DNA of 64,000 bases from Alphaproteobacteria bacterium (GCA_017962565.1 JAGCVC010000001.1:79119-143118), one strand, 5' to 3'; positions 28,201-38,944 are shown, counted from the stretch's first letter. Notes: generated by a model from the sequence alone, not told the origin. Numbers and translations are program-made.

Positions 28201-31164
28201 GCCACCCAAACTGGAATAAGCGCCTTTAAAACTGTTCAAAATCTTTTTTGTACCACTTGTTTCTGTCGTCATATTTAACGCACGTATATAAACGGAACCA
28301 TCATTTGTTCCACCGGCGGCCCTCATATTACCGCTACCACCATTATGCGTCAAAATAATTTTTCCTTGGTTGATGGCAGATCCCCCTTCACCTCCGGAAC
28401 CAGTGAAACCTTTAAGGTCTGAGTTGTACCCGGAGGAAGTAAGATAGATAAAGCCATCTTCACCATTAGTTTTTTTACCAGCAGATTTCATACCGTCTAA
28501 TTCTAATCCATCTGAAGACGAACGAATATCTATAATACCATTGTTCGTTTGCTCTATGTCTGCTCCACCTTTTGTATTTAAAGCACTATATGATGAACCT
28601 TTCTTATAAAATCCGCTTATTACAGTTGTAATAGCACCATTATTTTCAATAGTTGCTCCTTCACCCGACATAACAATAACAGATGAAGAAAGCATAGCTC
28701 CCAATGCATTAGAACTATGCATATACATGGTGACATCATTGTTACTTTCCGCCGAACCTTTTGCACCATCAATCACGTTCAAAATACCACCGTTTGAAAC
28801 ATCTATCGGATCGGCCGCAGAACCCAACATAATTTTTCCTTCATTTTTCAAGGTGGATTTTCCTGCGCCGGAACCGATGATGTAAACATGTTTAGCAACA
28901 TCAATACTATTCATCAATTCACCACTGACTATAATGGTTCCGTTATTAATTGCGGTTGTTCCATTTTCTGTCGATGCATCCGGTGTTGTATAAAGCACAG
29001 AAACGTTGTAAAGCAGATTTGTTAAATCCAACTTAATTATACCACTTGTATCGTTAACAACATACCCACCAGCAGTAGCCTCCATCACTCTTAATTCAGA
29101 TGCGCCCAAAGTGCCACCGACTTCATCGGGGAAAAGCGTACTACCGGCAACACCCGCAGAAACAGTACCTTTATTAGATACGACCTTTCCGGTTATACCC
29201 CGTGCAATATTTCTATCCAAAGTGAATGGATAAGCCGAAACATCAACGTCTTCATCAGAATTACCCAAAATGATATTAACGCTGGCAGTTGCATTGTTAA
29301 TTACATTTCGATCTGGTGCATAAATACCCCATACATTTAATGCTTCACCAAAAGCTCTGATATTAACTTCACCATCATTTATTACGTTAGCGCCTTTATT
29401 TGGTACATTCGGGCTGATACGACTGGCATCCATTGCAATAGACACATTTGCTGATTTAGCTGTCACGTTAATTATACCAGAGTTTGTAAATTCAGCTGCA
29501 GAGGATGCTTTCATACCAATCACGCCTTTGTTGGTCTTCGAACTTTCTATTGCATTTATCGTACCTCCAACTATCGTTATAGTCTTATTGCCATCTTCAT
29601 CTTCGCTTTCTATCGCACTACCTTCATTTCTTGCTTTTGAGGCATGAGCTAATTTAACTGTACCACCGCTTTCGGTCAAAGCTCCCTCACCGACACCGTT
29701 TGCCCATAAACCAACAGCAATTCTGCTGTCATTTCCAACAACGTTTATGATGCCATCTTCTCCATTTTTAGTTTCCAAACCCTCGGTTGCAATTTGACTG
29801 ACTGTATAGTTTTTGTCATTCCACGTCACATCACCGCTTCCGATTATCAGATTATTATCAACATCTACAAAGGCAATTTCATTTGCTCCATCTGTAAACG
29901 GTAAAGTATAAACACCGTTGACAACCTTATCACCATAAACACGTTTATCATCAGCCTCTTGTTGAGTAACATCTTCTACAACGAAATCTGATGCAACATC
30001 ACAATCTTTCTTTTTGCTGTTTGATGAAGAAAATCCGTCTTCGCAAATACAAAAACCGGTTGCAATGTTACAAGAACCATGTTTACCACATCTGGCATCA
30101 TAGCACAAATCTTTAATATCACAGTGGTCACCGGTATAACCTGGGTTACAAGTACAAACCGGTTTTACCGGATCGTCTTCCGAAAGTTCACATTGTCCAT
30201 TGGAGCCGCAATCCACATTATCGCAGACAAAGGCATCGCAACTATCCCCGCTGTAACCTCTATTACAAGTACATGCCATTCTTCTTTCCGAACCTTCACC
30301 GGTGTATTCGCAAGTTCCGTTACCATTACAGTTTTTATCGCAAGCTTGAGCAACAGAACAATCATCCCCTTCAAATCCCGGATAGCAAGTACAAGTTTTT
30401 GTTACCCTATCGCAACTACCTTGTCCGCTACAATTGTTCGGACAGGTTTTTTCTCTGGAACAATCTTCTCCTTCATAATCGTCATCACATGTACATGTAG
30501 CTGTTTCTTCATCGCACGTACCATGTCCGCTACAATCATTTGGGCAAGTTTGCTTTATGGAACAATCCGAACCTTCCCAACCCTTTGTACAAACACAAAT
30601 CTCTCTTTCTTCGTCATAAGTTCCGTGTCCGCTACAATCTTCTTTCTTGCTGCCGCCACCACCACCGCCGCCACCGGCTGCAATAGCTGCAACGCCACCG
30701 ACAACTGCGACACCACCGATTGTTGCCATACCGGCAGGGGTTGTCCAGAAACTTTCACCGGATTTTTTACGCCCTGCGGCACGAGAATTTCTACGTGTAT
30801 TTGCTGCCGTTGACTTTTCCGGACATACAGAACTGCCAACTGCGCCTGATTGAGAACAAAGTGCTTTCTTTTGTTCGGGAGATATGTTGTCCATACAGCT
30901 GTGGTTGGCATTGGCACCGGCCTTAATCAACGCATTGTAAGCTTTCACATTTTTTGACGCAACAGCTGAACACAAAACAGTTTTGCCGCTTCCGTCAACA
31001 ACATCGATGTCATGTCCGGCGTCCCTTAACTTTTGCAATCCTTGGACATCACCGCGTTGAGCATATTGGTAGACAGCCTGTCTGAGTGGTATAGCCGCTT
31101 TTGCTGTTCCCGAAATTCCCAAAACCAACGCAGCAAGAATTAATATCAATTTTTTGCGCAACAT
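25252..31164 (-). CDS. giant classical (type Va) autotransporter: signal peptide, 2 ankyrin repeats, Gly-rich segment, about 6 EGF/tenascin-like Cys repeats, long beta-helix-like passenger, S/G/D-rich 12-aa tandem repeats, and a C-terminal 12-strand beta-barrel ending in ...KWNF
   Basis: Signal MLRKKLILILAALVLGISGTAKA. ANK repeats G.T.L..A. EGF-like motifs CSGHGTC..C.C..G.G..C. The C-terminal ~280 aa have alternating hydrophobic beta-strands and a terminal aromatic Phe, typical of the autotransporter beta-domain. Confidence 0.8.
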   Translation of the reverse strand: MLRKKLILILAALVLGISGTAKAAIPLRQAVYQYAQRGDVQGLQKLRDAGHDIDVVDGSGKTVLCSAVASKNVKAYNALIKAGANANHSCMDNISPEQKKALCSQSGAVGSSVCPEKSTAANTRRNSRAAGRKKSGESFWTTPAGMATIGGVAVVGGVAAIAAGGGGGGGGSKKEDCSGHGTYDEEREICVCTKGWEGSDCSIKQTCPNDCSGHGTCDEETATCTCDDDYEGEDCSREKTCPNNCSGQGSCDRVTKTCTCYPGFEGDDCSVAQACDKNCNGNGTCEYTGEGSERRMACTCNRGYSGDSCDAFVCDNVDCGSNGQCELSEDDPVKPVCTCNPGYTGDHCDIKDLCYDARCGKHGSCNIATGFCICEDGFSSSNSKKKDCDVASDFVVEDVTQQEADDKRVYGDKVVNGVYTLPFTDGANEIAFVDVDNNLIIGSGDVTWNDKNYTVSQIATEGLETKNGEDGIINVVGNDSRIAVGLWANGVGEGALTESGGTVKLAHASKARNEGSAIESEDEDGNKTITIVGGTINAIESSKTNKGVIGMKASSAAEFTNSGIINVTAKSANVSIAMDASRISPNVPNKGANVINDGEVNIRAFGEALNVWGIYAPDRNVINNATASVNIILGNSDEDVDVSAYPFTLDRNIARGITGKVVSNKGTVSAGVAGSTLFPDEVGGTLGASELRVMEATAGGYVVNDTSGIIKLDLTNLLYNVSVLYTTPDASTENGTTAINNGTIIVSGELMNSIDVAKHVYIIGSGAGKSTLKNEGKIMLGSAADPIDVSNGGILNVIDGAKGSAESNNDVTMYMHSSNALGAMLSSSVIVMSGEGATIENNGAITTVISGFYKKGSSYSALNTKGGADIEQTNNGIIDIRSSSDGLELDGMKSAGKKTNGEDGFIYLTSSGYNSDLKGFTGSGGEGGSAINQGKIILTHNGGSGNMRAAGGTNDGSVYIRALNMTTETSGTKKILNSFKGAYSSLGGGESGATSGTGTIDIELTGSSRGYATGASYIGDENSETLLNSVNILANNLTNTSDATLILTGVSSERLYEKEQQGSLTYTNNLFISVAGQENNATYVNGMTGIDQSISNDGVIKIDVDLGKSKKHQIIGMRTQDNRYGMSIPTSWVEEPDSLISALGHVPLGNYMGVNYDGGYGHNEFKAVNNNTIQISVYGGSRNDLKDDDQITYREGIDDRYPFVIEYPESFLYDEEISPIGYTKNLSADSNVILKPLSIKNYSTGVLETFYPDVIGMATNSVAINNGTIDITISGNSDARAVGMLAYEGGFIQNSASGVIRFSGKTENFIPFYAYGTRVTLLDDKENKPHDFEINYATFSNKGTIEINGIEESHSATLGGSTKTTNPAYNPNNPGSYDPDDPNTWNPSGPGEVQTDDVGFYEADSWAREVYKWEKGSINGEEAWIMKYDEENSTVDSSTVPILDYYNVTNSGSASGGSSGDSSGSDSGDSSGDSSGGDSGDTSGDTGGSDSGDTSGDTGGSDSGDSSGDSGIPSGTSISSLSSVASSSDLSENVASIPSLMISQNIKFISEDGGSFSANGYHLLGEVMAGASIVQKGNEDVYVADGKGSGAFVGDGDYSDMSVISSTPLFDASYALNENNSNGIDIVMTRKPFEEVVDNSNLAQFLESNYVAGNNEEFFNKLKSFETVSSLLQGLDDLTGKQMLTRFNFEDITMMREMNFDMNEKLFHDKKQQFALSGSVSPMAFKGDTGSSSKYGLYNRHIGNFSVGLGVAFTNIYSDNSHDSDNRRDNAYQLIAPIGYKTHGFNLVSSARMGYARGNYTRTGFENKSYKGTLEKRLFGLTNEARYPLSVGEWTVEPAAEFNVLGYTQRGSEDEREFSLNVKSQSTYSVEAGIGLYLTKEEQLSKDSNLKLNVGVAAYHEFADPYKVDVEMNGMRGHFTLRDEDRSDNRGVIRSGFDYKTGPYTFYGSMTSYIDHELRANAKTGFKWNF
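26640..26830. repeat. 36-bp coding tandem repeat (about 5 copies, TATCGCCTGAATCACTTCCGCCAGTATCTCCCGAGG) encoding SGD(T/S)SGD(T/S)GGSD units in the autotransporter passenger
   Basis: Exact copies start at 26649, 26685 and 26721 (period 36), then degenerate copies. It is in-frame inside 25252..31164. Confidence 0.65.
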
Positions 31165-31439
31165 GAAAAACTCCCATTAAATAAAGAAGGTATGTCTAAT
31201 CAGACCGTATTCTTTTCTTGCCGCAGTTGCGAAAGTACCGGCAAAAATTGAACGCGTCAAAATTAAACATATCCCTTCGAACACTATATTCTCCCACAAT
31301 AATACCGTTTTGTGCATACAAATCAGAAAATCGAATCGCACGATGCACATTTTCACTCAATCTATTCAAGCACAACATAAAAAGCTTAAAAAAGTATTAA
31401 AAAAATGCAAAAAAAATGAAAAAAAACAAAAAAAGGGGG

Positions 31440-31475
31440 TTGACATCGGATTCAAAAAGGATTCTAATGGGGGCA
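31440..31475 (+). promoter_or_regulatory. putative sigma70-type promoter for the OmpA-like/TAA operon (TTGACA -17- TCTAAT)
   Basis: TTGACATCGGATTCAAAAAGGATTCTAAT lies about 30 nt upstream of AAGGGGG (RBS) and the GTG at 31502. Confidence 0.35.
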
Positions 31476-31501
31476 TGTCTAACAAAACCAAGGGGGTTAT
31501 T

Positions 31502-32221
31502 GTGAAAAAACTACTGTTAATAGGGACAATCTTAGTTGCTGTCGGCTGTGGCTGTGCACCACGCCGCGATGAGATCTGTCCGTCAAGCACATTAGCAATG
31601 TGCGAACCCGCCATCTATTTTGAGTATGATTCAGCCAAGATAGATGACAAGAACGCAGTCACGATTGACTGGATTGCACAAAAATTAAACACATACCCGG
31701 ACAGAACGGTCACATTGGCCGGCTATACGGATTTGAATGGTCGTGAAAATTACAATCTTTCGCTGTCGGGCAGACGCGCTGCGGCAATTCAGGAAGCTTT
31801 AATTTTACGCGGCGTTGATCCAAATCAAATCATCGTTGAAGCAAAAGGCATGACGGATCCCTTGGCAACAGAGGAAGACAAACAAAACTTGAACCGTCGT
31901 GTTGATGTTACTTTCGGGCATAAACAAAGAAGTTTAGCTGATGCATGCAAAGAAACTTGGGATGAACTATTCTGTTCAAAAGAAGCAGTCAAAGAAGAAG
32001 CCGACAAAGCACAACAAGATGCTTCTGCAACGGCCGAGGAAGTAAAAGAAGAAGCTAAAGCAACAGTCGCGGAAGTCAAAAAAGACGCAAACGATGCAAA
32101 AGCGGACATCAAAAACGATGTAAAAGAAATTAAAAAAGACGTCAAAGAAGATGTCAAAAATGTAAAAGAAGACGTTAAAAATGACGTCAATGATATTCAA
32201 CCAAACAAGGAAGGAAAATAA
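31502..32221 (+). CDS. OmpA/Pal-family peptidoglycan-associated lipoprotein with a K/E/D-rich repetitive C-terminal tail
   Basis: GTG at 31502 follows AAGGGGG with a 5-nt spacer; the upstream ATG at 31310 has no RBS and would precede the promoter. Signal/lipobox LLIGTILVAVGCGC. OmpA C-domain motifs are present (YFEYDSAKI...TVTLAGYTDLNG...NLSLSGRRAAA...RRVDV). Confidence 0.65.
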   Translation: MKKLLLIGTILVAVGCGCAPRRDEICPSSTLAMCEPAIYFEYDSAKIDDKNAVTIDWIAQKLNTYPDRTVTLAGYTDLNGRENYNLSLSGRRAAAIQEALILRGVDPNQIIVEAKGMTDPLATEEDKQNLNRRVDVTFGHKQRSLADACKETWDELFCSKEAVKEEADKAQQDASATAEEVKEEAKATVAEVKKDANDAKADIKNDVKEIKKDVKEDVKNVKEDVKNDVNDIQPNKEGK

Positions 32222-32223
32222 TT

Positions 32224-35200
32224 ATGAACTTAAAATTATCAAGAACAGCATTACGTGAGTTGACCAGACTATATCGTGGTGTATTATTTGCGGCGATCAT
32301 TTCAGCCGCATTTGTCGCATCCGGCGCAAGAGCTGAAGTAACAGAAGTTTCCACATGGGATGCTTTGAAAACAGGATTAACAGCTGGCTCAGATATGAAA
32401 ATGACTGGCAATATTACCATCTCGGAAGGTCTTGGAATTACCGATAAGGATAATACTGTTGACATGGATGGTAAAACTTTATCTGGAGATGCAGGCAACA
32501 CAAATGGATTTTCTATTTTTGGAGGATCTTTAGACCTTAAAAATGGAGGCACTATTTCCGACATTAACAGAAATGGTTCGACAGCTGGTGTTTTCAATGT
32601 ACAAGGGGGAGATCTTTCCTTGACAGGTGGTGATTTTACTTTCAAAAATAATACATCTACAAGAGGTGTTATCCAAGTTTGGGAAAGTGCCAATCCTTCT
32701 GAAGCTACTTTAACAACTGACGTAAATTCATTAGTGTTTAATAACAACAGTTCAACAATGGGTGGTGCTATTTATCATGAACAAAGGTATTCTGATTCTG
32801 ACGTTGTTTCTGAATTAAAAGGAAGTACTATTAAATTCGAAAATAATAAAGCTACTGCAGGTAACGGTGGTGCTATTTTGAACGTAGTTGGGGATATTTC
32901 AGTTCTCGGTGATACAAACGAGTTTTTGGGAAACAGCGCAAAGAACGCTTCAACAGACACTGTTGATAAACATTACAAACGTGGTGGTGGTGCAATTGCC
33001 AATGCTTCAGGTGAAAGCTTATATGATGCTACAATGATTGTTGGTAAAGCAACCAGCGTTAATAAATTTGAAGGAAATACTTCAATAACAAACGGCGGTG
33101 CAATTATGAACCGTGCTGTTGATGCCGATAAAAATGTAGATTTAACCATTAACGGTACATCAACATTTACTGGTAATACTGCAAAAGAAAAAGGTGGTGC
33201 GATTTACAATATTCAACAAGCTGGTCGTACTGCAACATTAACAATCAATGGTGCAGCAACATTCTCTGGTAACACAGCCAATGGCGAAGCCAATGATATT
33301 TACAATGATGCCGGTACAGTTAATTTGAATGCCGCTGCTGGTAAAGAAATCAGCTTGGCAGGTGGTATTGATGGTGCCGCAGGTACACTCAATGTCAATG
33401 GCTCCGGTACAACCGGTACAGTCAGTGTTGCAAATGCTTTGAAAAACCAAACTGTAAGTGTTACAGCCGGTGAATTGGCGTTATCAGATGTCAATTTGAC
33501 AGGTTCAACAGTCGGTGTCGCTTCCGGTGCAACACTCAATACAATTGATGGTAAGATCAATAATTATGAAGGAATTACTTTGGCTGCAGGCGCTAACTTG
33601 AAAGCCGATGTCGGTTTGGCAGGTAGCGGCTCACATGATGCTTTCACAGCCGCCGGTGCTTTCAATTTGACGGGTTTAAGCATTACTTCCGATGCAGAAT
33701 CTGAAACAACCGAATTAACATTGTCAGATCAAGCTGTTACAGTTGCCGCTGGTTTAAGCACTTATACAAGTAAACAAAAATACACCGTAGCAAACAGCGA
33801 AACAACCGGTAACATTAAACTTACCGGTTTGGGCGATGGCACAGGTGGTTTGGGTGCCGCATCCGCTGATACTTCTTCCCCAAACGTTACTCATACAATG
33901 ACGGATGACGAAGGATTTGGCGGCGGAACTGTTGCTGCAACCAACTTCGAATTAAATGGTAACAATAAATCCGTTGATCTTGATGGTGATTTGAATGTTG
34001 CTTCCGGTAAGACCTTCACAGCACAAAATGTCACATTCGAAGGTAGTAACGATATTTTGAACGCTGGTACAATGATCATCAAAGATTCAAATATCGATGT
34101 TGACCTTACAAACAACGGTGTTTTGATTTCTGACCCGACAACATATTCTGGTACAGTTACCAACAACACGACTGCTTCATTTACTGATGATACATTTACA
34201 TCAACAGCAACGTTGGCCAACAATGGTACAGCAAGCTTAACAGATACAACGTTTGAAACCGGTTCAAACATTAACGGTACCGGTACTTTGCAGTCCGTTG
34301 GCGGGACAAACGTTATCGGTGCTACTGTTACAGGTCAAGCTATCGACATCCAAGGCGGATCAACTTTACAATTGATTGAAGGTAGTAACATTGATGGTGC
34401 TGCTGTTACAACAAGTGCCGGTGGTGGTACGTTGGATTTGCGTAACGACCGTCTTGATACTTTAGGTTCAACAACATTGGGTTCAAACTTAAGTGTTAAG
34501 ATGGATGCTAACTTGAGCACAGGCGCAACAGATGCTTTCGGATCATTTACCTCTAATGGTAACACAGTTACTGTTGATGCTTTGGAATTGTTAGCATTAG
34601 GTAGTGATCAAACACTTACATTGGCCACTGGTGCTGATGCAGGTGCAGTGACATTGTCAACTGATGCTATTACAACATTACAAACTTACTACGGCACAGT
34701 TACCGACAACGGTGATGGTACAGTAACATTGAGCGGAAAGAAAACAACTGCTGATGCTGATTTGGTTGGTACATGGGGTACAGGCGATGTCATCAAAGCT
34801 TACGATGCAAGTGACAAAGCCAACACTTCCGTTGGTGCTAACTTGATGGCTTTGGATGCTCAAAAGGTAAATAAGTCAGATGTTTATACAAGTGTAATTG
34901 ACGATACTGCAGTTTCAAATGCTGATGAAAAAGTTGTTTCCGTTAAATCATTCCAAGATTCTATCCAAAACTTAATGGATAATGTATCAATCGAATGGCA
35001 ACAACAACAACAATTCGCTGATGGAATTGCTATTGGTACCGGTGGTACTGCTGTACAAATAAGTCAAAATACAGACGGTACTTTGAACGTCAATAAAGAC
35101 ATCATGATCAATGGTAACAAAGCTTTGACGACAGCAAGTGCTTTGGATGGTGCTAACTTGACAAACGGAACAGTTGCAAAAGCAGCTTTAGCTTCCGGTG

Positions 35201-38181
35201 TCCAAAGTTCTTTGGATAAAGCAGATTCAGCTATCCAAACGGTTAAAGTTAATGGCACAGCGTTGACAGTAACTTCAAATGCAGTTGACATCTTAATTGC
35301 AGAAGGTGCTACAAATGGTACAATCAAAGTGAATAATGTTGATGTTGCTGTTCATGGTTTAGGTTCAGCTGCTTACGCAGATGCTTTGACTGGAACAATT
35401 GCTGCAAACACAACATCAAATGATTTGGTATCTGCCGCACAAGTTGTTGGTTATGCACAAGCACAATTGAAGAACGATGAAACTACACCGGCTGATATCA
35501 GCTCAACCGTTTTGACAACAGTACGTGCATCGGGTTCTGCTTCAGATACAGCTTTGGTAACAGAAAAAGCTGTTGCAACTGCAGTAGAAGGTGCAACATC
35601 TGATATTCTTGATGGTACATCAGTTTTCACCGGTTTTACGATGACAAACAATGCCTCAACACCGGCTAATGTAACAATTACCAAGATTGATGATGGTAAC
35701 CACACTGACTCTACAACCACAACATTGGCTACAACTGCTACAGTGACAAAGGCTGTCACCAATTTGAAAGCCGCTAATAATACATGGACTGGTACAAACA
35801 CGTTCAATTACAGTGACGATGCTGCTGGTGCTGGCGTAACGGGCTTCTCCGTAACAGCAACAGATACTGATGCTGGAAACTCCGGAGCAAACGCTTCCAC
35901 AACGTCTTTGACCGTCAACTCCAAAACCGGTGTGACAATTACCGGTGATTTAACAGCAAACGGTAATGTCACTTTGGGTGATGCCGCAGCTGATGTGATT
36001 ACGGTCAACGGAACAGCAACATTTGGTCAACAAATCAATGCTACGAACGGAATTAAAGCCGGAACAAACACAACATTGGTTGATGGCACATTGACAGTTG
36101 GCGATGGATCAACATCCAGCACATTGACACATAATGCTTTGTCAACAGCAACCGTTAATGCTACGACAGTTAATGCCGGAACAAATGGAACAGCTTTAGC
36201 TGACAATTCATTAACATTGCATGATGGAACATATTCAACGGTATTGAGTGCTGTTCAAAAAGGAACAACTACATCCAGTTTGTTGAATGTCAGCACAGGT
36301 ATGAACGTCAATGGTGATACAACAGTTGCCGGAACATTGGGTGTAACAGGCAATACAACAGTTGGTGGTACATTGACTGTCGGTGGTGCAAATGCAATTA
36401 CCGGCACAGCTGCTTCCGGATCAACTCCTGCCACATTGGATATGAACAAAAATGCTTTAACGAATGTACAAGGTTTGACATTAACTGATGGTGCTACTAC
36501 AGCAAAGACAGCTTCTTTGACTGTTGATACAACCAGTGGTGACTTGAGTGTTAATAAGACTATTGATGCAACTCAAGGTGTCAAGTTCGGCGATGGTACA
36601 ACATTGGATAGCGTAGCAATGACTTCTGCTGATCACGGTACTGCGGATATTAAAGCTGATGCAACTGGTCAAGGTGCTGTTGTAGCTAGTGTACAAACAG
36701 TTGCTGCAACACGTGACGCAATTAATGACGACGTTACAACCGTTTTAGGTGGTATCTATAAAGTTGCGGGTACTGGTGCTGTTGTTACTTATGACAATAC
36801 AGCTCTTACAGGTGCAACCGCAACAACGCCGAACCTCGGTAAAGGTTTTGCTGATGGACAAACAAACTTGTCAGCGGCTTTACAAAATTACGCTGGTAAC
36901 GTTGCTGCTGCAACTGGTTTGACATACAACGCTGCGGGAGCAAACACAACGACATATGTAGTAAAGACTGCAACAGATGCAGCCAATTATGCTGACTTCG
37001 CAGCTGGCACATCTTTGAAAGCTGCTGTTGATCAAACCAGCAAGAATATCGGTCTTGGAATGACATCCGTAACGGCACGTTCTGTAACAGGTGGTACAAC
37101 AGCTGCAACACAAACGGTCAACCAAAACTTGTCTGCTTTGGATGCTACAATCGGTGGCGATATGACATCCGTAACAACACGTTCTGTAGCGGGTGGTACA
37201 ACAGCCGTGACACAAACAGTCAATGCTAACTTGTCTGCTTTGGATGCCGCAATTGGTGCTGATATGGCGGTCATTGGCGATACAGGTACAGGTATTGCAA
37301 ACAGAGCAACTGCTGCTTTCCAAACAAAGAAAGCAAATACGATTAACCAAAACTTGTCTGCTTTGGATGCTGCTATCGGTGTTGATATGACAGCAATTGG
37401 AACTGGCCGTACAACAACAGCTTTCCAAACAGCTGCCGGAAACAGCGTCAATGCCAACTTAACAGCTTTGGATGCTACAATCGGTGCTGATGTGACAACA
37501 ATTGCTTCTACAACAGTAAAAACAGGTGCTGGAGACAACAACGGCGTTGTTGCAACAAACACAGTTAACCAAAACTTGTCAGCTTTGAATGCTGCTGTCG
37601 GTGACATTGCTACATTAAGTGCTGGTACAGGTGCAACCGGTGACGCAATCACCAATGGAACAGGCACCGCTGCCACAACGGTTGTTCAAGCTTTGAACAA
37701 CATCGATGCAACAATGGGTAACATCCATGGCTTGTATGATGGCTCAACAGTTAACAGTTCTGTTATAGCATCAACAGTCAATGGACATTCTAACTTGGCT
37801 GTCGGAACAACAGTTGAAGATCATTTGGTCAGCATTGATAATGCCATCGGCGATCGTAATCAATTTGATCAATCTCACTACATGCAAGCTATTGATTCTG
37901 TTGCAGATGCTATGATGAGCGTTGACCACAATTTGTATCGTGTCGAAAAAGAAATGCGCGGTGGTTTTGCTTCAATGGCTGCTATGTCCGCTTTGGTACC
38001 AAACGCACGTGCCGCAGGCGATACTCAAATTTCAGTGGGTGTCGGTGCTTATCGTGATCACCAAGGTATGGCTCTCGGTGCATTCCATTACTTCAACGAC
38101 AACATCTTGGCCAACGTTGGTGCTTCCTATGGTGGCGACAAGAGTACGGTATTCCGTGCTGGTGTTACATTCGGTTGGTAA
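32224..38181 (+). CDS. giant trimeric-autotransporter-type (type Vc, YadA-like anchor) adhesin with N-terminal Pmp-like (GGAI / FxxN) repeat region and Thr/Ala-rich stalk with 35-aa repeats
   Basis: ATG lies 2 nt after the ompA-like stop, with GGAAGGAAAA RBS. Long signal MNLKLSRTALRELTRLYRGVLFAAIISAAFVASGARA. Repeated F.(N/G)N....GGAI(Y/L/M)N motifs. The C-terminal ~75 aa (GGFASMAAMSAL...ISVGVGAYRDHQGMALGAFHYFNDNILANVGASYGGD...FRAGVTFGW) match the 4-strand YadA-type membrane anchor ending in W. Confidence 0.8.
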   Translation: MNLKLSRTALRELTRLYRGVLFAAIISAAFVASGARAEVTEVSTWDALKTGLTAGSDMKMTGNITISEGLGITDKDNTVDMDGKTLSGDAGNTNGFSIFGGSLDLKNGGTISDINRNGSTAGVFNVQGGDLSLTGGDFTFKNNTSTRGVIQVWESANPSEATLTTDVNSLVFNNNSSTMGGAIYHEQRYSDSDVVSELKGSTIKFENNKATAGNGGAILNVVGDISVLGDTNEFLGNSAKNASTDTVDKHYKRGGGAIANASGESLYDATMIVGKATSVNKFEGNTSITNGGAIMNRAVDADKNVDLTINGTSTFTGNTAKEKGGAIYNIQQAGRTATLTINGAATFSGNTANGEANDIYNDAGTVNLNAAAGKEISLAGGIDGAAGTLNVNGSGTTGTVSVANALKNQTVSVTAGELALSDVNLTGSTVGVASGATLNTIDGKINNYEGITLAAGANLKADVGLAGSGSHDAFTAAGAFNLTGLSITSDAESETTELTLSDQAVTVAAGLSTYTSKQKYTVANSETTGNIKLTGLGDGTGGLGAASADTSSPNVTHTMTDDEGFGGGTVAATNFELNGNNKSVDLDGDLNVASGKTFTAQNVTFEGSNDILNAGTMIIKDSNIDVDLTNNGVLISDPTTYSGTVTNNTTASFTDDTFTSTATLANNGTASLTDTTFETGSNINGTGTLQSVGGTNVIGATVTGQAIDIQGGSTLQLIEGSNIDGAAVTTSAGGGTLDLRNDRLDTLGSTTLGSNLSVKMDANLSTGATDAFGSFTSNGNTVTVDALELLALGSDQTLTLATGADAGAVTLSTDAITTLQTYYGTVTDNGDGTVTLSGKKTTADADLVGTWGTGDVIKAYDASDKANTSVGANLMALDAQKVNKSDVYTSVIDDTAVSNADEKVVSVKSFQDSIQNLMDNVSIEWQQQQQFADGIAIGTGGTAVQISQNTDGTLNVNKDIMINGNKALTTASALDGANLTNGTVAKAALASGVQSSLDKADSAIQTVKVNGTALTVTSNAVDILIAEGATNGTIKVNNVDVAVHGLGSAAYADALTGTIAANTTSNDLVSAAQVVGYAQAQLKNDETTPADISSTVLTTVRASGSASDTALVTEKAVATAVEGATSDILDGTSVFTGFTMTNNASTPANVTITKIDDGNHTDSTTTTLATTATVTKAVTNLKAANNTWTGTNTFNYSDDAAGAGVTGFSVTATDTDAGNSGANASTTSLTVNSKTGVTITGDLTANGNVTLGDAAADVITVNGTATFGQQINATNGIKAGTNTTLVDGTLTVGDGSTSSTLTHNALSTATVNATTVNAGTNGTALADNSLTLHDGTYSTVLSAVQKGTTTSSLLNVSTGMNVNGDTTVAGTLGVTGNTTVGGTLTVGGANAITGTAASGSTPATLDMNKNALTNVQGLTLTDGATTAKTASLTVDTTSGDLSVNKTIDATQGVKFGDGTTLDSVAMTSADHGTADIKADATGQGAVVASVQTVAATRDAINDDVTTVLGGIYKVAGTGAVVTYDNTALTGATATTPNLGKGFADGQTNLSAALQNYAGNVAAATGLTYNAAGANTTTYVVKTATDAANYADFAAGTSLKAAVDQTSKNIGLGMTSVTARSVTGGTTAATQTVNQNLSALDATIGGDMTSVTTRSVAGGTTAVTQTVNANLSALDAAIGADMAVIGDTGTGIANRATAAFQTKKANTINQNLSALDAAIGVDMTAIGTGRTTTAFQTAAGNSVNANLTALDATIGADVTTIASTTVKTGAGDNNGVVATNTVNQNLSALNAAVGDIATLSAGTGATGDAITNGTGTAATTVVQALNNIDATMGNIHGLYDGSTVNSSVIASTVNGHSNLAVGTTVEDHLVSIDNAIGDRNQFDQSHYMQAIDSVADAMMSVDHNLYRVEKEMRGGFASMAAMSALVPNARAAGDTQISVGVGAYRDHQGMALGAFHYFNDNILANVGASYGGDKSTVFRAGVTFGW
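37060..37640. repeat. coding tandem repeats of about 105 nt (35 aa) in the adhesin stalk, each carrying N-Q-N-L-S-A-L-D-A-x-I-G
   Basis: Near-identical units start at 37060 and 37161. Further degenerate copies carry AACTTGTCTGCTTTGGATGC at about 37225, 37341, 37450 and 37572. Confidence 0.55.
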
Positions 38182-38199: not shown

Positions 38200-38231
38200 T
38201 ACCCCGGCTGATTTGGTCGGGGTTTTTTTGT
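38200..38231 (+). terminator. intrinsic terminator after the adhesin gene (ACCCCGGCTGATTTGGTCGGGGT plus a T7 run)
   Basis: 7-bp GC stem and T-run 20 nt after the stop. Confidence 0.65.
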
Positions 38232-38293
38232 TGCATTATTAAAAAAAATATGCTACACAGAACATATCTAACAAAAACAGAAAGGATTACAAA

Positions 38294-38944
38294 ATGAAAA
38301 AATCAAAAAAATTAATTATTTTTTGTGTCGTTGTCGCTATTTTAGTCGGTGCCGGTTTTGCTGTTAAACATGAATTGTGGAAACGCTGTCCGAATGCACA
38401 ATTTGAACGTTACTGTGAAGGTACATCCTGCCCTTATGCTCAAAAGCGTTTAAATGACGGGGAAAAGAAATCTTTTGTTACAATCAGAAAACATCAAATA
38501 GAAACAGGCAAAAACCAATTGGATGCCGAAATCTTGAAAGTTGTTTCAAAAGAAGAATTGACCGAAATCAGTTTAAAAATGCGCGCAGCTTTAGCTGATG
38601 AAATTCGTCAATCTGTTTTGGATAATATGGCTCCACGTGATAAGTTTGCCGGCAATTATGATTGTATGCGTCAAGCCTATATCAACGAATTATCAAATGA
38701 AGAAGTTTTGTTCTTGCAATCATTAAAAAATAAAAGTTTGAACGATTTACAAAATCCGCAAGTTCGTCAAATGTATTTAAATACATCTCCAAAAATTATG
38801 AAATGTATGAACGAAACTGTTCAACAAAAGTATTTGGAAGAAGTAAAAGTTTTAACAACTCCGGCTGTAGAAGAAAAGAAACCGGCTCCAAAGAAAAAGA
38901 AGGCTAAAAAAGAAGCTCCTAAGGAAGAGAAAAAAGAAGATTAA
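38294..38944 (+). CDS. hypothetical exported protein with a Lys/Glu-rich C-terminal tail
   Basis: N-terminal signal anchor MKKSKKLIIFCVVVAILVGAGFA. The C-terminus is KKPAPKKKKAKKEAPKEEKKED. Confidence 0.5.
   Translation: MKKSKKLIIFCVVVAILVGAGFAVKHELWKRCPNAQFERYCEGTSCPYAQKRLNDGEKKSFVTIRKHQIETGKNQLDAEILKVVSKEELTEISLKMRAALADEIRQSVLDNMAPRDKFAGNYDCMRQAYINELSNEEVLFLQSLKNKSLNDLQNPQVRQMYLNTSPKIMKCMNETVQQKYLEEVKVLTTPAVEEKKPAPKKKKAKKEAPKEEKKED

What the first reader, a model, noticed from the sequence alone, without database searches (positions are those of the whole stretch)
31440..38181. OmpA/Pal-like lipoprotein gene coupled to a YadA-anchor trimeric autotransporter bearing Chlamydia-Pmp-like GGAI/FxxN repeats
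The lipoprotein gene has a predicted sigma70-like promoter and a GTG start behind AAGGGGG. It ends 2 nt before the ATG of a 1985-aa protein whose last ~75 residues have the 4-beta-strand YadA-type anchor (...AGVTFGW), i.e. a trimeric autotransporter adhesin (TAA). The N-terminal third of this TAA carries at least 8 F.(N/G)N....GGAI(Y/L/M)N units. This is the signature motif pair of polymorphic membrane proteins, which are normally monomeric type Va autotransporters. A Pmp-like head on a trimeric anchor is a chimeric architecture I do not recognise as described. OmpA-domain lipoproteins that partner TAAs are known to assist TAA biogenesis, so the pair may be a dedicated adhesin-plus-helper operon. 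The lipoprotein also has a long charged repeat tail (VKEDVKN..)n that could span the periplasm.
Basis: partly seen in the sequence, partly recalled or inferred. Interest (0 to 1): 0.7.

Follow-up and report, generated by a model that had tools for sequence, protein, structure and literature searches.

The report
Trimeric adhesin with Pmp-type beta-helix head
An uncultured gut or rumen alphaproteobacterium encodes a giant surface adhesin that has the membrane anchor of trimeric autotransporters but the beta-helix head normally seen on monomeric ones, next to a cell-wall-binding lipoprotein gene; this design recurs in a small family and I found no paper describing it.

Summary
The window holds a 239-aa OmpA-domain lipoprotein gene (31502-32221). 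Two nt later starts a 1985-aa gene (32224-38181) with a YadA-type anchor (Pfam E 3e-13; aligns to YadA 2lme) and Chlam_PMP repeats (56 bits). There are five canonical FxxN/GGAI pairs plus two degenerate ones, not eight or more.

The architecture is not a one-off chimera. About 50 database clusters share it, and all carry the conserved module 601-844, which type Va relatives lack. All 22 genome-collection loci with this anchor type are MAGs, mostly rumen or gut Alphaproteobacteria. NCBI already calls this protein "YadA-like family protein". I found no paper on the Pmp plus YadA combination.

The OmpA gene lies directly upstream of the TAA gene in five divergent loci but is missing from a close relative. 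It lacks the BamE-like domain of TpgA, and its charged tail is unique to this genome. Sister lineages carry a Skp-like gene downstream instead.

Verdict: a new variant of a known kind, of moderate interest.

The parts
31440..31468 (+). Putative promoter, TTGACA-17 nt-TCTAAT. Weak: C at position 2 of the -10 hexamer.
   Evidence: Sequence read. Not listed by the promoter scan, and promoter-like sites are not enriched in the region.
31490..31496 (+). Shine-Dalgarno-like AAGGGGG, 5 nt before the GTG start.
31502..32221 (+). OmpA-family lipoprotein gene (239 aa; MBP5533961.1). It has a signal peptide with a lipobox-like LVAVGC (Cys16) and a short Cys-containing linker conserved in orthologs.
31616..31891 (+). 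OmpA-like peptidoglycan-binding domain (residues about 39-130). The motif GYTD..G..NYNLSLSGRRA is present, and D77, N85, S89, R92 and A93 are invariant among the five partner proteins.
   Evidence: Pfam PF00691 E 1.5e-18; alignment A3
31949..32218 (+). Lys/Glu/Asp/Val/Ala-rich repeat tail (residues about 150-239; imperfect 33-nt repeats). It is specific to this genome.
   Evidence: TRF; absent from four orthologs; composition
32224..38181 (+). Gene for a 1985-aa type Vc (trimeric) autotransporter (MBP5533962.1, 'YadA-like family protein').
32224..32334 (+). 37-residue signal peptide with a conserved N-terminal extension (MNLKLSRTALRELTRLYRGVL...), shared with type Va and Vc relatives.
   Evidence: no ESPR Pfam match
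32641..33306 (+). Pmp-type FxxN/GGAI repeat region (residues 140-361): five canonical and two degenerate units.
32335..34749 (+). Single-chain beta-helix head (residues 38 to about 842).
33235..33657 (+). Conserved module 'midA' (residues 338-478; FSGNTANGxANDIYN...). It is strong in all YadA-anchored relatives and weak in type Va relatives.
34024..34755 (+). Conserved module 'midB' (residues 601-844; SDPTTY...NYYT). It was found only with YadA anchors or in proteins with a cut-off or unrecognised C-terminus, never in type Va relatives.
34756..37896 (+). Thr/Ala/Gly/Asn-rich stalk (residues 845-1891). It has no Pfam domain and does not fold as a monomer. It contains short helical segments and repeated 'TVNxNLSALDAxIG' units.
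   Evidence: 102-nt tandem repeat at 37060-37266
37897..38178 (+). YadA-type membrane anchor: a helix plus four beta-strands (residues 1892-1985).
38201..38233 (+). Intrinsic-terminator-like hairpin (10 pairs, 6 G-C) plus a T-run, 20 nt after the TAA stop. This is the likely operon end.

Best explanation
This is a two-gene unit of an uncultured alphaproteobacterium, probably from the rumen or gut.

The second gene encodes a type Vc (trimeric) autotransporter adhesin with a non-canonical passenger. After a 37-residue signal peptide, each chain has an N-terminal domain of about 800 residues. This domain is a single-chain, right-handed parallel beta-helix, the fold of monomeric type Va passengers. 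It is built in part from Pmp-type FxxN/GGAI coils and ends in two family-specific modules (midA and midB). A threonine/alanine/glycine-rich stalk of about 1000 residues follows, and then a canonical four-strand YadA anchor.

Inferred steps:
- Three chains form the 12-strand barrel through the Bam pathway.
- The passengers are exported from C-terminus to N-terminus.
- The trimer displays three beta-helices at the tip of a long fibre, side by side much like a phage tailspike, and these act as the adhesive surface.

The first gene encodes a Pal-like outer-membrane lipoprotein whose OmpA domain keeps the peptidoglycan-binding motif. It is probably co-transcribed and translationally coupled with the adhesin gene. 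My inference is that it tethers the adhesin's anchoring site to the cell wall, or stabilises the anchor. That would be functionally analogous to TpgA, but without TpgA's BamE-like binding domain.

Shown: the domain content, the fold of the head, the family distribution and the conserved gene adjacency. Inferred: trimerisation, adhesion, co-transcription and any physical contact between the two proteins.
For: - Anchor: PF03895 E 3.2e-13, full profile. Alignment to the YadA anchor 2lme, E 5e-7 for the single sequence and 4e-8 for the profile. Four terminal strands in the model. The anchor is highly conserved across 16 related loci.
- Pmp repeats: PF02415 56 bits in 5 stretches; TIGR01376; shuffle test 5 against 0.05.
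- Stalk and anchor do not fold as a monomer (pLDDT 40.6), as expected of an obligate oligomer.
- Family: about 50 of 82 homologs carry both PF03895 and PF02415. midB occurs in every YadA-anchored relative that also has Pmp repeats and in no type Va relative. An exhaustive search of 1.84 billion representatives finds 51 proteins with midA and midB.
- Operon: 2-nt gap, AAGGAAGG before the ATG, no terminator-like site at the junction, and a strong terminator after the TAA gene.
- Pairing: an orthologous OmpA lipoprotein gene (28-45% identical) lies 3-63 nt upstream on the same strand in five loci. One of these has a 623-aa TAA without Pmp repeats.
- Peptidoglycan-binding residues are invariant in the partner family.
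Against: - Trimerisation rests only on homology of the anchor. No multimer model or experiment was possible.
- The stalk has no recognisable TAA stalk, neck or head Pfam domain, and the profile has no sequence match to solved TAA passengers.
- The Foldseek search of the head against the PDB gave nothing with E below 1e-3.
- The OmpA partner is absent from L001/L002 (P0003), whose anchor is nearly identical. It is also absent from L009, L015, L016 and L018 and from KFKLF-anchor members.
- No domain like the one through which TpgA binds its TAA is present.
- The charged tail is not conserved.
- Adhesin function is assumed from family knowledge, and no ligand is known.
Confidence: 0.65

Rival explanations
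1. The OmpA lipoprotein is a general outer-membrane to peptidoglycan tether (a Pal or YiaD-like paralog) that merely happens to lie next to the adhesin gene. It has no specific role in the adhesin's biogenesis or anchoring.
For: - Only the generic OmpA domain matches any model. The best NCBIfam hits are YiaD, LptF and Pal, all below their cut-offs.
- There is no BamE-like or other TAA-binding domain.
- A close relative with a near-identical anchor lacks the gene.
- KFKLF-anchor members have no such neighbour.
- In L023 and in the window the gene also neighbours a second giant surface-protein gene.
Against: - Adjacency within 3-63 nt on the same strand is kept in five loci whose OmpA proteins are only 28-45% identical. 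That is hard to explain without selection.
- The partners form their own ortholog group with a conserved Cys-x7-Cys linker.
- In L005 and L007 the pair occurs without the second giant gene.
Confidence: 0.3
2. The beta-helix head is a surface-displayed carbohydrate-active enzyme or glycan binder (a tailspike-like depolymerase or lyase) rather than a protein adhesin. This would suit a rumen or gut organism.
Against: - No carbohydrate-active-enzyme Pfam family matches, even at E up to 10.
- The sequence repeats are of the Pmp adhesin type, and the top structural match is an autotransporter passenger.
- Sequence identity to the enzymes is 9-16%, and no catalytic residues were identified.
Confidence: 0.1
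3. The gene is a recent or artefactual chimera, either a misassembly or a one-off fusion of a type Va Pmp-like gene with a TAA gene. In that case the architecture has no biological meaning.
For: The source is a MAG. The same signal peptide and Pmp repeats occur on type Va relatives, so recombination between such genes is plausible.
Against: - The identical protein lies on two 280-kb contigs from different assemblies.
- About 50 divergent clusters share the same order of modules, including midB, which is never seen in type Va relatives.
- The reading frame is intact over 5.9 kb.
Confidence: 0.03

Closest known systems
Trimeric autotransporter adhesins (type Vc: YadA, Hia, BadA, AtaA, SadA)
   Same: It has a C-terminal YadA-type four-strand anchor preceded by a helix, an N-terminal signal peptide, a very long fibre-like passenger and a head-stalk-anchor order.
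   Different: - No YadA_head, Hep_Hag, HIM or YadA_stalk Pfam domain is present.
- The head is a right-handed, three-sided, type Va-like beta-helix with Pmp repeats. The left-handed beta-roll and the beta-prism are said to cover most TAA heads (PMC7247746).
- The stalk is Thr/Ala/Gly-rich with only short helices.
Chlamydial polymorphic membrane proteins (Pmp; type Va)
   Same: It carries FxxN and GGA(I/L/V) repeat pairs that pass the Pfam and TIGRFAM repeat models, and its passenger is predicted to be a beta-helix.
   Different: - The anchor is YadA-type, not the 12-strand PF03797 barrel.
- No Pmp middle domain matched.
- Only 5-7 repeats are present.
- The host is an alphaproteobacterium.
- The family has its own midA and midB modules.
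TpgA of Acinetobacter (TAA-associated peptidoglycan-binding protein)
   Same: The gene is adjacent to a TAA gene, probably in the same operon, and the protein has an OmpA_C-like domain with the peptidoglycan-binding motif.
   Different: - There is no SmpA/OmlA (BamE-like) N-terminal domain, which is the part of TpgA that binds the TAA barrel (PMC12523085).
- It is a lipoprotein.
- It is encoded upstream, whereas 91% of tpgA-like genes lie downstream.
- It scores 48.5 bits against the 350-bit cut-off of NF047726.
Pal / YiaD-type OmpA-domain lipoproteins
   Same: It has a lipobox, a short linker and an OmpA domain. The best NCBIfam matches are YiaD, LptF and Pal, over the domain region only.
   Different: - It is below every equivalog cut-off (Pal 67 against 125; YiaD 86 against 175).
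- It is not in a tol-pal cluster.
- It has a conserved Cys-x7-Cys linker and, in this genome only, a 90-residue charged tail.
Phage tailspike proteins (P22, HK620, CBA120)
   Different: There is no sequence relationship. This is an outer-membrane-anchored secretion substrate, not a virion protein, and the side-by-side arrangement here is inferred, not shown.

Membership tests
Trimeric autotransporter adhesin (type Vc) | C-terminal YadA-like anchor (PF03895): one helix plus four beta-strands per chain | tested here: met
   PF03895 50 bits against a 22.7-bit cut-off, profile 1-60/60. Aligns to YadA 2lme, E 5e-7. Four terminal strands in the model.
Trimeric autotransporter adhesin (type Vc) | Formation of an obligate homotrimer | not testable with these tools
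   Only single-chain prediction is available. The stalk and anchor fold poorly as a monomer (pLDDT 40.6), which is consistent with an oligomer but not proof.
Trimeric autotransporter adhesin (type Vc) | Canonical passenger modules (YadA head / Hep_Hag, neck / HIM, YadA_stalk coiled coil) | tested here: not met
   No such Pfam match at E up to 10 in four 500-aa segments. The profile search of the PDB hits only the anchor.
Trimeric autotransporter adhesin (type Vc) | N-terminal Sec signal peptide | tested here: inconclusive
   Residues 1-37 have a basic N-region, a hydrophobic core and ARA|EV. No signal-peptide predictor was available.
Chlamydia-type polymorphic membrane proteins | Repeated FxxN and GGA(I/L/V) motifs matching PF02415 / TIGR01376 | tested here: met
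   PF02415 56.3 bits against a 20.6-bit cut-off, 5 stretches. TIGR01376 24.6 bits against 15. 5 pairs against 0.05 in shuffles.
Chlamydia-type polymorphic membrane proteins | C-terminal monomeric 12-strand autotransporter barrel (PF03797) | tested here: not met
   No PF03797 match; a YadA anchor is present instead.
Chlamydia-type polymorphic membrane proteins | Pmp middle domain | tested here: not met
   No Pfam family other than PF02415 and PF03895 matched the passenger at E up to 10.
TpgA (TAA-associated peptidoglycan-binding protein) | SmpA/OmlA (BamE-like) N-terminal domain that binds the TAA barrel | tested here: not met
   Only about 20 residues lie between the lipobox Cys and the OmpA domain. 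There is no such Pfam match. The NF047726 match covers only the OmpA part, 48.5 bits against 350.
TpgA (TAA-associated peptidoglycan-binding protein) | OmpA_C-like domain with the peptidoglycan-binding motif | tested here: met
   PF00691 E 1.5e-18. The TD...NxxLSxxRA motif is invariant in the partner family.
TpgA (TAA-associated peptidoglycan-binding protein) | Gene in an operon with, and usually downstream of, a TAA gene | tested here: inconclusive
   The gene is adjacent on the same strand with a 2-nt gap, but upstream. 91% of tpgA-like genes lie downstream.
Pal (peptidoglycan-associated lipoprotein) | Passes the Pal equivalog model and lies in a tol-pal cluster | tested here: not met
   TIGR02802 67.1 bits against 125.35 and NF008067 40.6 against 261. 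No tol gene was found among the neighbours scanned.

The most novel reading that the evidence does not exclude
These proteins define an undescribed class of trimeric autotransporters, confined so far to uncultured gut and rumen Alphaproteobacteria.

In this class a Pmp-type right-handed beta-helix, the hallmark passenger of monomeric type Va autotransporters, is grafted through a dedicated adapter module (midB) onto a trimeric stalk and YadA anchor. Different lineages would have recruited different dedicated periplasmic partners: an OmpA lipoprotein upstream, or a Skp paralog downstream. They would also share their own conserved signal-peptide extension.

A recent global survey of TAAs reported that no helpers beyond TpgA and SadB exist, and that alphaproteobacterial TAAs have no alternative long signal peptide.
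Probability: 0.4. Interest if true: 0.65.

Novelty: new variant of a known kind. Interest (0 to 1): 0.55.

Why it matters
Reviews describe trimeric autotransporter heads as left-handed beta-rolls or beta-prisms, and right-handed beta-helices as the passengers of monomeric autotransporters. A natural family that puts an 800-residue type Va-like beta-helix on a type Vc anchor bears on three questions.

- It shows that passenger and anchor modules cross between the two secretion subtypes.
- It asks how three bulky beta-helices pass one 12-strand barrel and pack at the fibre tip.
- It offers a ready-made scaffold for trivalent display.

The conserved neighbours are candidate dedicated helpers of type Vc secretion: an OmpA lipoprotein without a BamE-like domain in one lineage and a Skp paralog in another. 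Only TpgA and SadB are known so far.

The limits are that the organisms are uncultured, the family is small, and nothing about function has been shown.

Tried and rejected
- The afdb50 fold library was unavailable.
- A profile of the stalk and anchor against PDB sequences found only the YadA anchor, so no link to solved TAA stalk fragments.
- AlphaFold2 of residues 860-1985 as a monomer was uninformative beyond secondary structure (pLDDT 40.6).
An 11-sequence alignment worked, but its search patterns came from the anchor. It therefore returned related anchors, none with canonical FxxN/GGAI pairs in the sequence held for the locus (several ORFs run off the locus).
- I looked for anchor residues that track the presence of the OmpA partner, by analogy with AtaA D3601 and TpgA. 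None was evident; anchors with and without a partner are nearly identical.
- I tested whether the 227-aa gene downstream of the TAA in L006 is a homolog of the window's 216-aa gene. It is not.
- I considered that the lipoprotein is Pal or TpgA. Both were rejected on the curated cut-offs and domain content.
- I considered misassembly. It was rejected.
- Four literature searches for Pmp repeats on trimeric autotransporters found nothing. The library holds open-access papers only, so absence is not proof.


Full report
**Source**

The four proteins looked up in this part of the window are exact matches to NCBI records of a MAG named 'Alphaproteobacteria bacterium' (two carry locus tags J6Y03_00425 and J6Y03_00440). 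The records are MBP5533960 (hypothetical), MBP5533961 ('OmpA family protein', 239 aa), MBP5533962 ('YadA-like family protein', 1985 aa) and MBP5533963 (hypothetical). The identical 1985-aa protein lies on two contigs of about 280 kb from different assemblies. The surrounding genes are ordinary chromosomal ones: SecA, glycogen phosphorylase, 4-alpha-glucanotransferase and glycosyltransferases.

**Checking the observation**

The ORFs are as described.
- The lipoprotein gene starts at GTG 31502, 5 nt after AAGGGGG, and stops at 32219-32221. The next ATG is at 32224, preceded by AAGGAAGG.
- Its product has a lipobox-like LVAVGC and an OmpA domain (PF00691, E 1.5e-18).
- The 1985-aa product matches YadA_anchor over the whole profile (E 3.2e-13, residues 1926-1985). 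It aligns to the solved YadA anchor 2lme over residues 1892-1985 (E 5e-7). Its model ends in exactly four beta-strands.
- It matches Chlam_PMP at 56.3 bits in five stretches against a 20.6-bit cut-off, and TIGR01376 as well.
- A motif count gives five canonical FxxN...GGAI pairs (F at 172, 205, 234, 282, 315) and two degenerate units (140, 347). Shuffled sequences give 0.05 pairs on average.

The claimed promoter (TTGACA-17-TCTAAT, 31440-31468) has C at the most conserved -10 position. The scan does not list it, and it finds no excess of promoter-like sites in the region. A strong terminator-like hairpin at 38201-38223 follows the TAA stop, and no terminator-like site lies at the junction between the two genes.

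**What the large protein is**

Residues 860-1985 do not fold as a monomer (pLDDT 40.6). They show short helices in the last 500 residues and then the four anchor strands. The region is Thr/Ala/Gly/Asn-rich with repeated 'TVNxNLSALDAxIG' units. It has no Pfam match at E up to 10 and no sequence relative among solved structures other than the anchor.

By its anchor, then, this is a type Vc autotransporter. By its head it resembles a type Va passenger. A review states that left-handed beta-rolls and beta-prisms suffice to classify most TAA heads (PMC7247746). In YadA-like heads each chain already forms its own solenoid. So the novelty lies in the class of solenoid (right-handed, three-sided, Pmp-type), not in the idea of three solenoids side by side. 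That last point rests on my own knowledge of the YadA head structure.

**It is a family, not a one-off chimera**

A word-indexed search returned 82 relatives, and about 50 of them carry both PF03895 and PF02415. Four of these carry an NCBI name, and all four are 'YadA-like family protein [Alphaproteobacteria bacterium]'.

Local HMMs built from the alignment show a fixed order of parts: signal peptide, a variable number of Pmp repeats, midA (window residues 338-478), midB (601-844), a variable stalk, then the anchor. midB is present in every YadA-anchored relative that has Pmp repeats and in none of the type Va relatives. An exhaustive phmmer search of residues 338-845 against 1.84 billion representatives found only 51 proteins at E up to 1e-3. 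Nine of the eleven I inspected are Pmp-rich proteins that end in a YadA-type anchor; the other two are cut off before any anchor.

A scan of one genome per species returned 22 loci with related anchors. All are MAGs, most labelled Alphaproteobacteria and many named for rumen, ruminant-gut or human-gut samples (RUG, RGIG, Hadza). None of these TAAs has a canonical FxxN/GGAI pair in the sequence held for the locus (several ORFs are cut off at the locus edge), yet several share the signal peptide and all share the anchor type.

The same conserved N-terminal extension (M-K-x-S-K-T-x-L-x-E-L-T-x-x-Y-R-x-V-L) heads both YadA-anchored and PF03797-anchored Pmp proteins. These bacteria therefore mix signal, Pmp-helix and anchor modules across the Va/Vc divide.

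**The lipoprotein partner**

Orthologous OmpA lipoprotein genes (28-45% identical) lie 3-63 nt upstream, on the same strand, of '...TFGW/F'-anchored TAA genes in five loci: the window, L005, L006, L007 and L023.
- The partners share a lipobox, a conserved Cys-x7-Cys linker and invariant peptidoglycan-binding residues.
- L023's TAA is only 623 aa and has no Pmp repeats, so the partner goes with the anchor lineage, not with the Pmp head.

The partner is not universal.
- It is missing in L001/L002 (P0003), whose anchor is almost identical to the window's.
- It is missing in L009, L015, L016 and L018.
- It is missing next to 'KFKLF'-anchored members.

The window protein's 90-residue charged tail is absent from all four orthologs.

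The protein is neither TpgA nor Pal. TpgA binds its TAA through a BamE-like N-domain and is encoded downstream in 91% of cases (PMC12523085). Here there is no such domain, and the TpgA and Pal models score far below their cut-offs.

**Other partners**

In 16 loci with '...YSW/YSF/YTW/YTF' anchors, a Skp/OmpH-like gene lies 15-77 nt downstream of the TAA gene. A 2026 survey of TAAs looked for helper genes only next to TAAs that have YadA heads. It reported none beyond TpgA and SadB. It also reported that alphaproteobacterial TAAs lack ESPR or any alternative long signal peptide (10.64898/2026.01.22.700529).

**Mechanism proposed**

- Sec export through the extended signal peptide.
- Bam-dependent assembly of three anchors into a 12-strand barrel.
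- C-to-N export of three chains.
- Trimerisation of the stalk and folding of three beta-helices at the tip, which serve as the adhesive surface.
- The lipoprotein, in the inner leaflet of the outer membrane, ties the site to peptidoglycan.

Only the domain content, the head fold, the family distribution and the synteny are shown. The rest is inferred from established knowledge of type V secretion.

**Rivals**

- The lipoprotein is a bystander tether (about 0.3).
- The head is a glycan-active, tailspike-like module (about 0.1).
- The gene is a chimera or artefact (about 0.03; effectively excluded).

**Novelty and score**

The proteins are already in the public databases under a generic name, and the anchor, repeats and OmpA domain are all known parts. 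The combination is what I could not find described: a Pmp-type right-handed beta-helix head with its own adapter modules on a YadA anchor, with lineage-specific OmpA or Skp neighbours (open-access literature only). I rate it a new variant of a known kind, with interest 0.55.

Noticed in passing
L003:14279-14788, L004:14951-15460, and the equivalent position in L008, L010, L013, L014, L017, L019-L021 and L024-L029: A Skp/OmpH-like gene (161-267 aa; PF03938 E 4e-10 for the L003 copy) lies 15-77 nt downstream, on the same strand, of the TAA gene in 16 loci with '...YSW/YSF' anchors. It may be a dedicated periplasmic chaperone for these adhesins. The 2026 TAA survey did not report it.
   Followed up: partly
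window 32224-32334, and the N-termini of about 50 of 83 relatives: A conserved N-terminal extension (M-K/N-x-S/K-K/L-T/S-x-L-x-E-L-T-x-x-Y-R-x-V-L) precedes the hydrophobic core of the signal peptide. It occurs on both YadA-anchored and PF03797 (type Va) proteins and is not Pfam ESPR. A recent preprint states that alphaproteobacterial autotransporters lack ESPR or any alternative long signal peptide.
   Followed up: partly
window 25252-31164 (-): A divergently transcribed 1970-aa protein with a signal peptide and an ankyrin-like N-terminus. It has at least five teneurin-type EGF domains (PF23106 / PF25024, E about 1e-27), which are unusual in bacteria, and Ser/Gly/Asp repeats. Its C-terminus looks like an outer-membrane beta-domain ending in FKWNF, but it has no PF03797 match. 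An ortholog lies directly upstream of the OmpA-TAA pair in L023 (37% identity over 419 aa). The length differs between assemblies (1958 against 1970 aa).
   Followed up: partly
window 38294-38944 (+): A 216-aa protein with an N-terminal membrane anchor or signal, six cysteines and a lysine-rich tail. It has no Pfam or NCBIfam family. [quoted passage not shown] In the window a terminator separates it from the TAA gene.
   Followed up: partly
L011:3-2329, L015:8471-12252, L018:9098-11950: Short '...TFGW'-anchored TAA-like genes lie directly upstream (34-102 nt) of a gene family whose L015 member is a clear tolB (TolB_N plus PD40 repeats). The intact ones are 483 and 792 aa (L018, L015); the L011 copy is cut off at the locus edge. 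A YadA-type anchor protein therefore appears to sit inside or next to the tol-pal region.
   Followed up: no
window 26000-38000: G+C is 0.40-0.44 across the two giant surface-protein genes, against 0.30-0.37 in the flanks. The Thr/Ala/Gly-rich coding could explain this, but foreign origin was not tested.
   Followed up: no
window 22212-25136 (-): A 974-aa protein with three glycosyltransferase family 2 domains lies immediately next to the EGF-repeat giant gene. It might glycosylate the neighbouring surface proteins.
   Followed up: no
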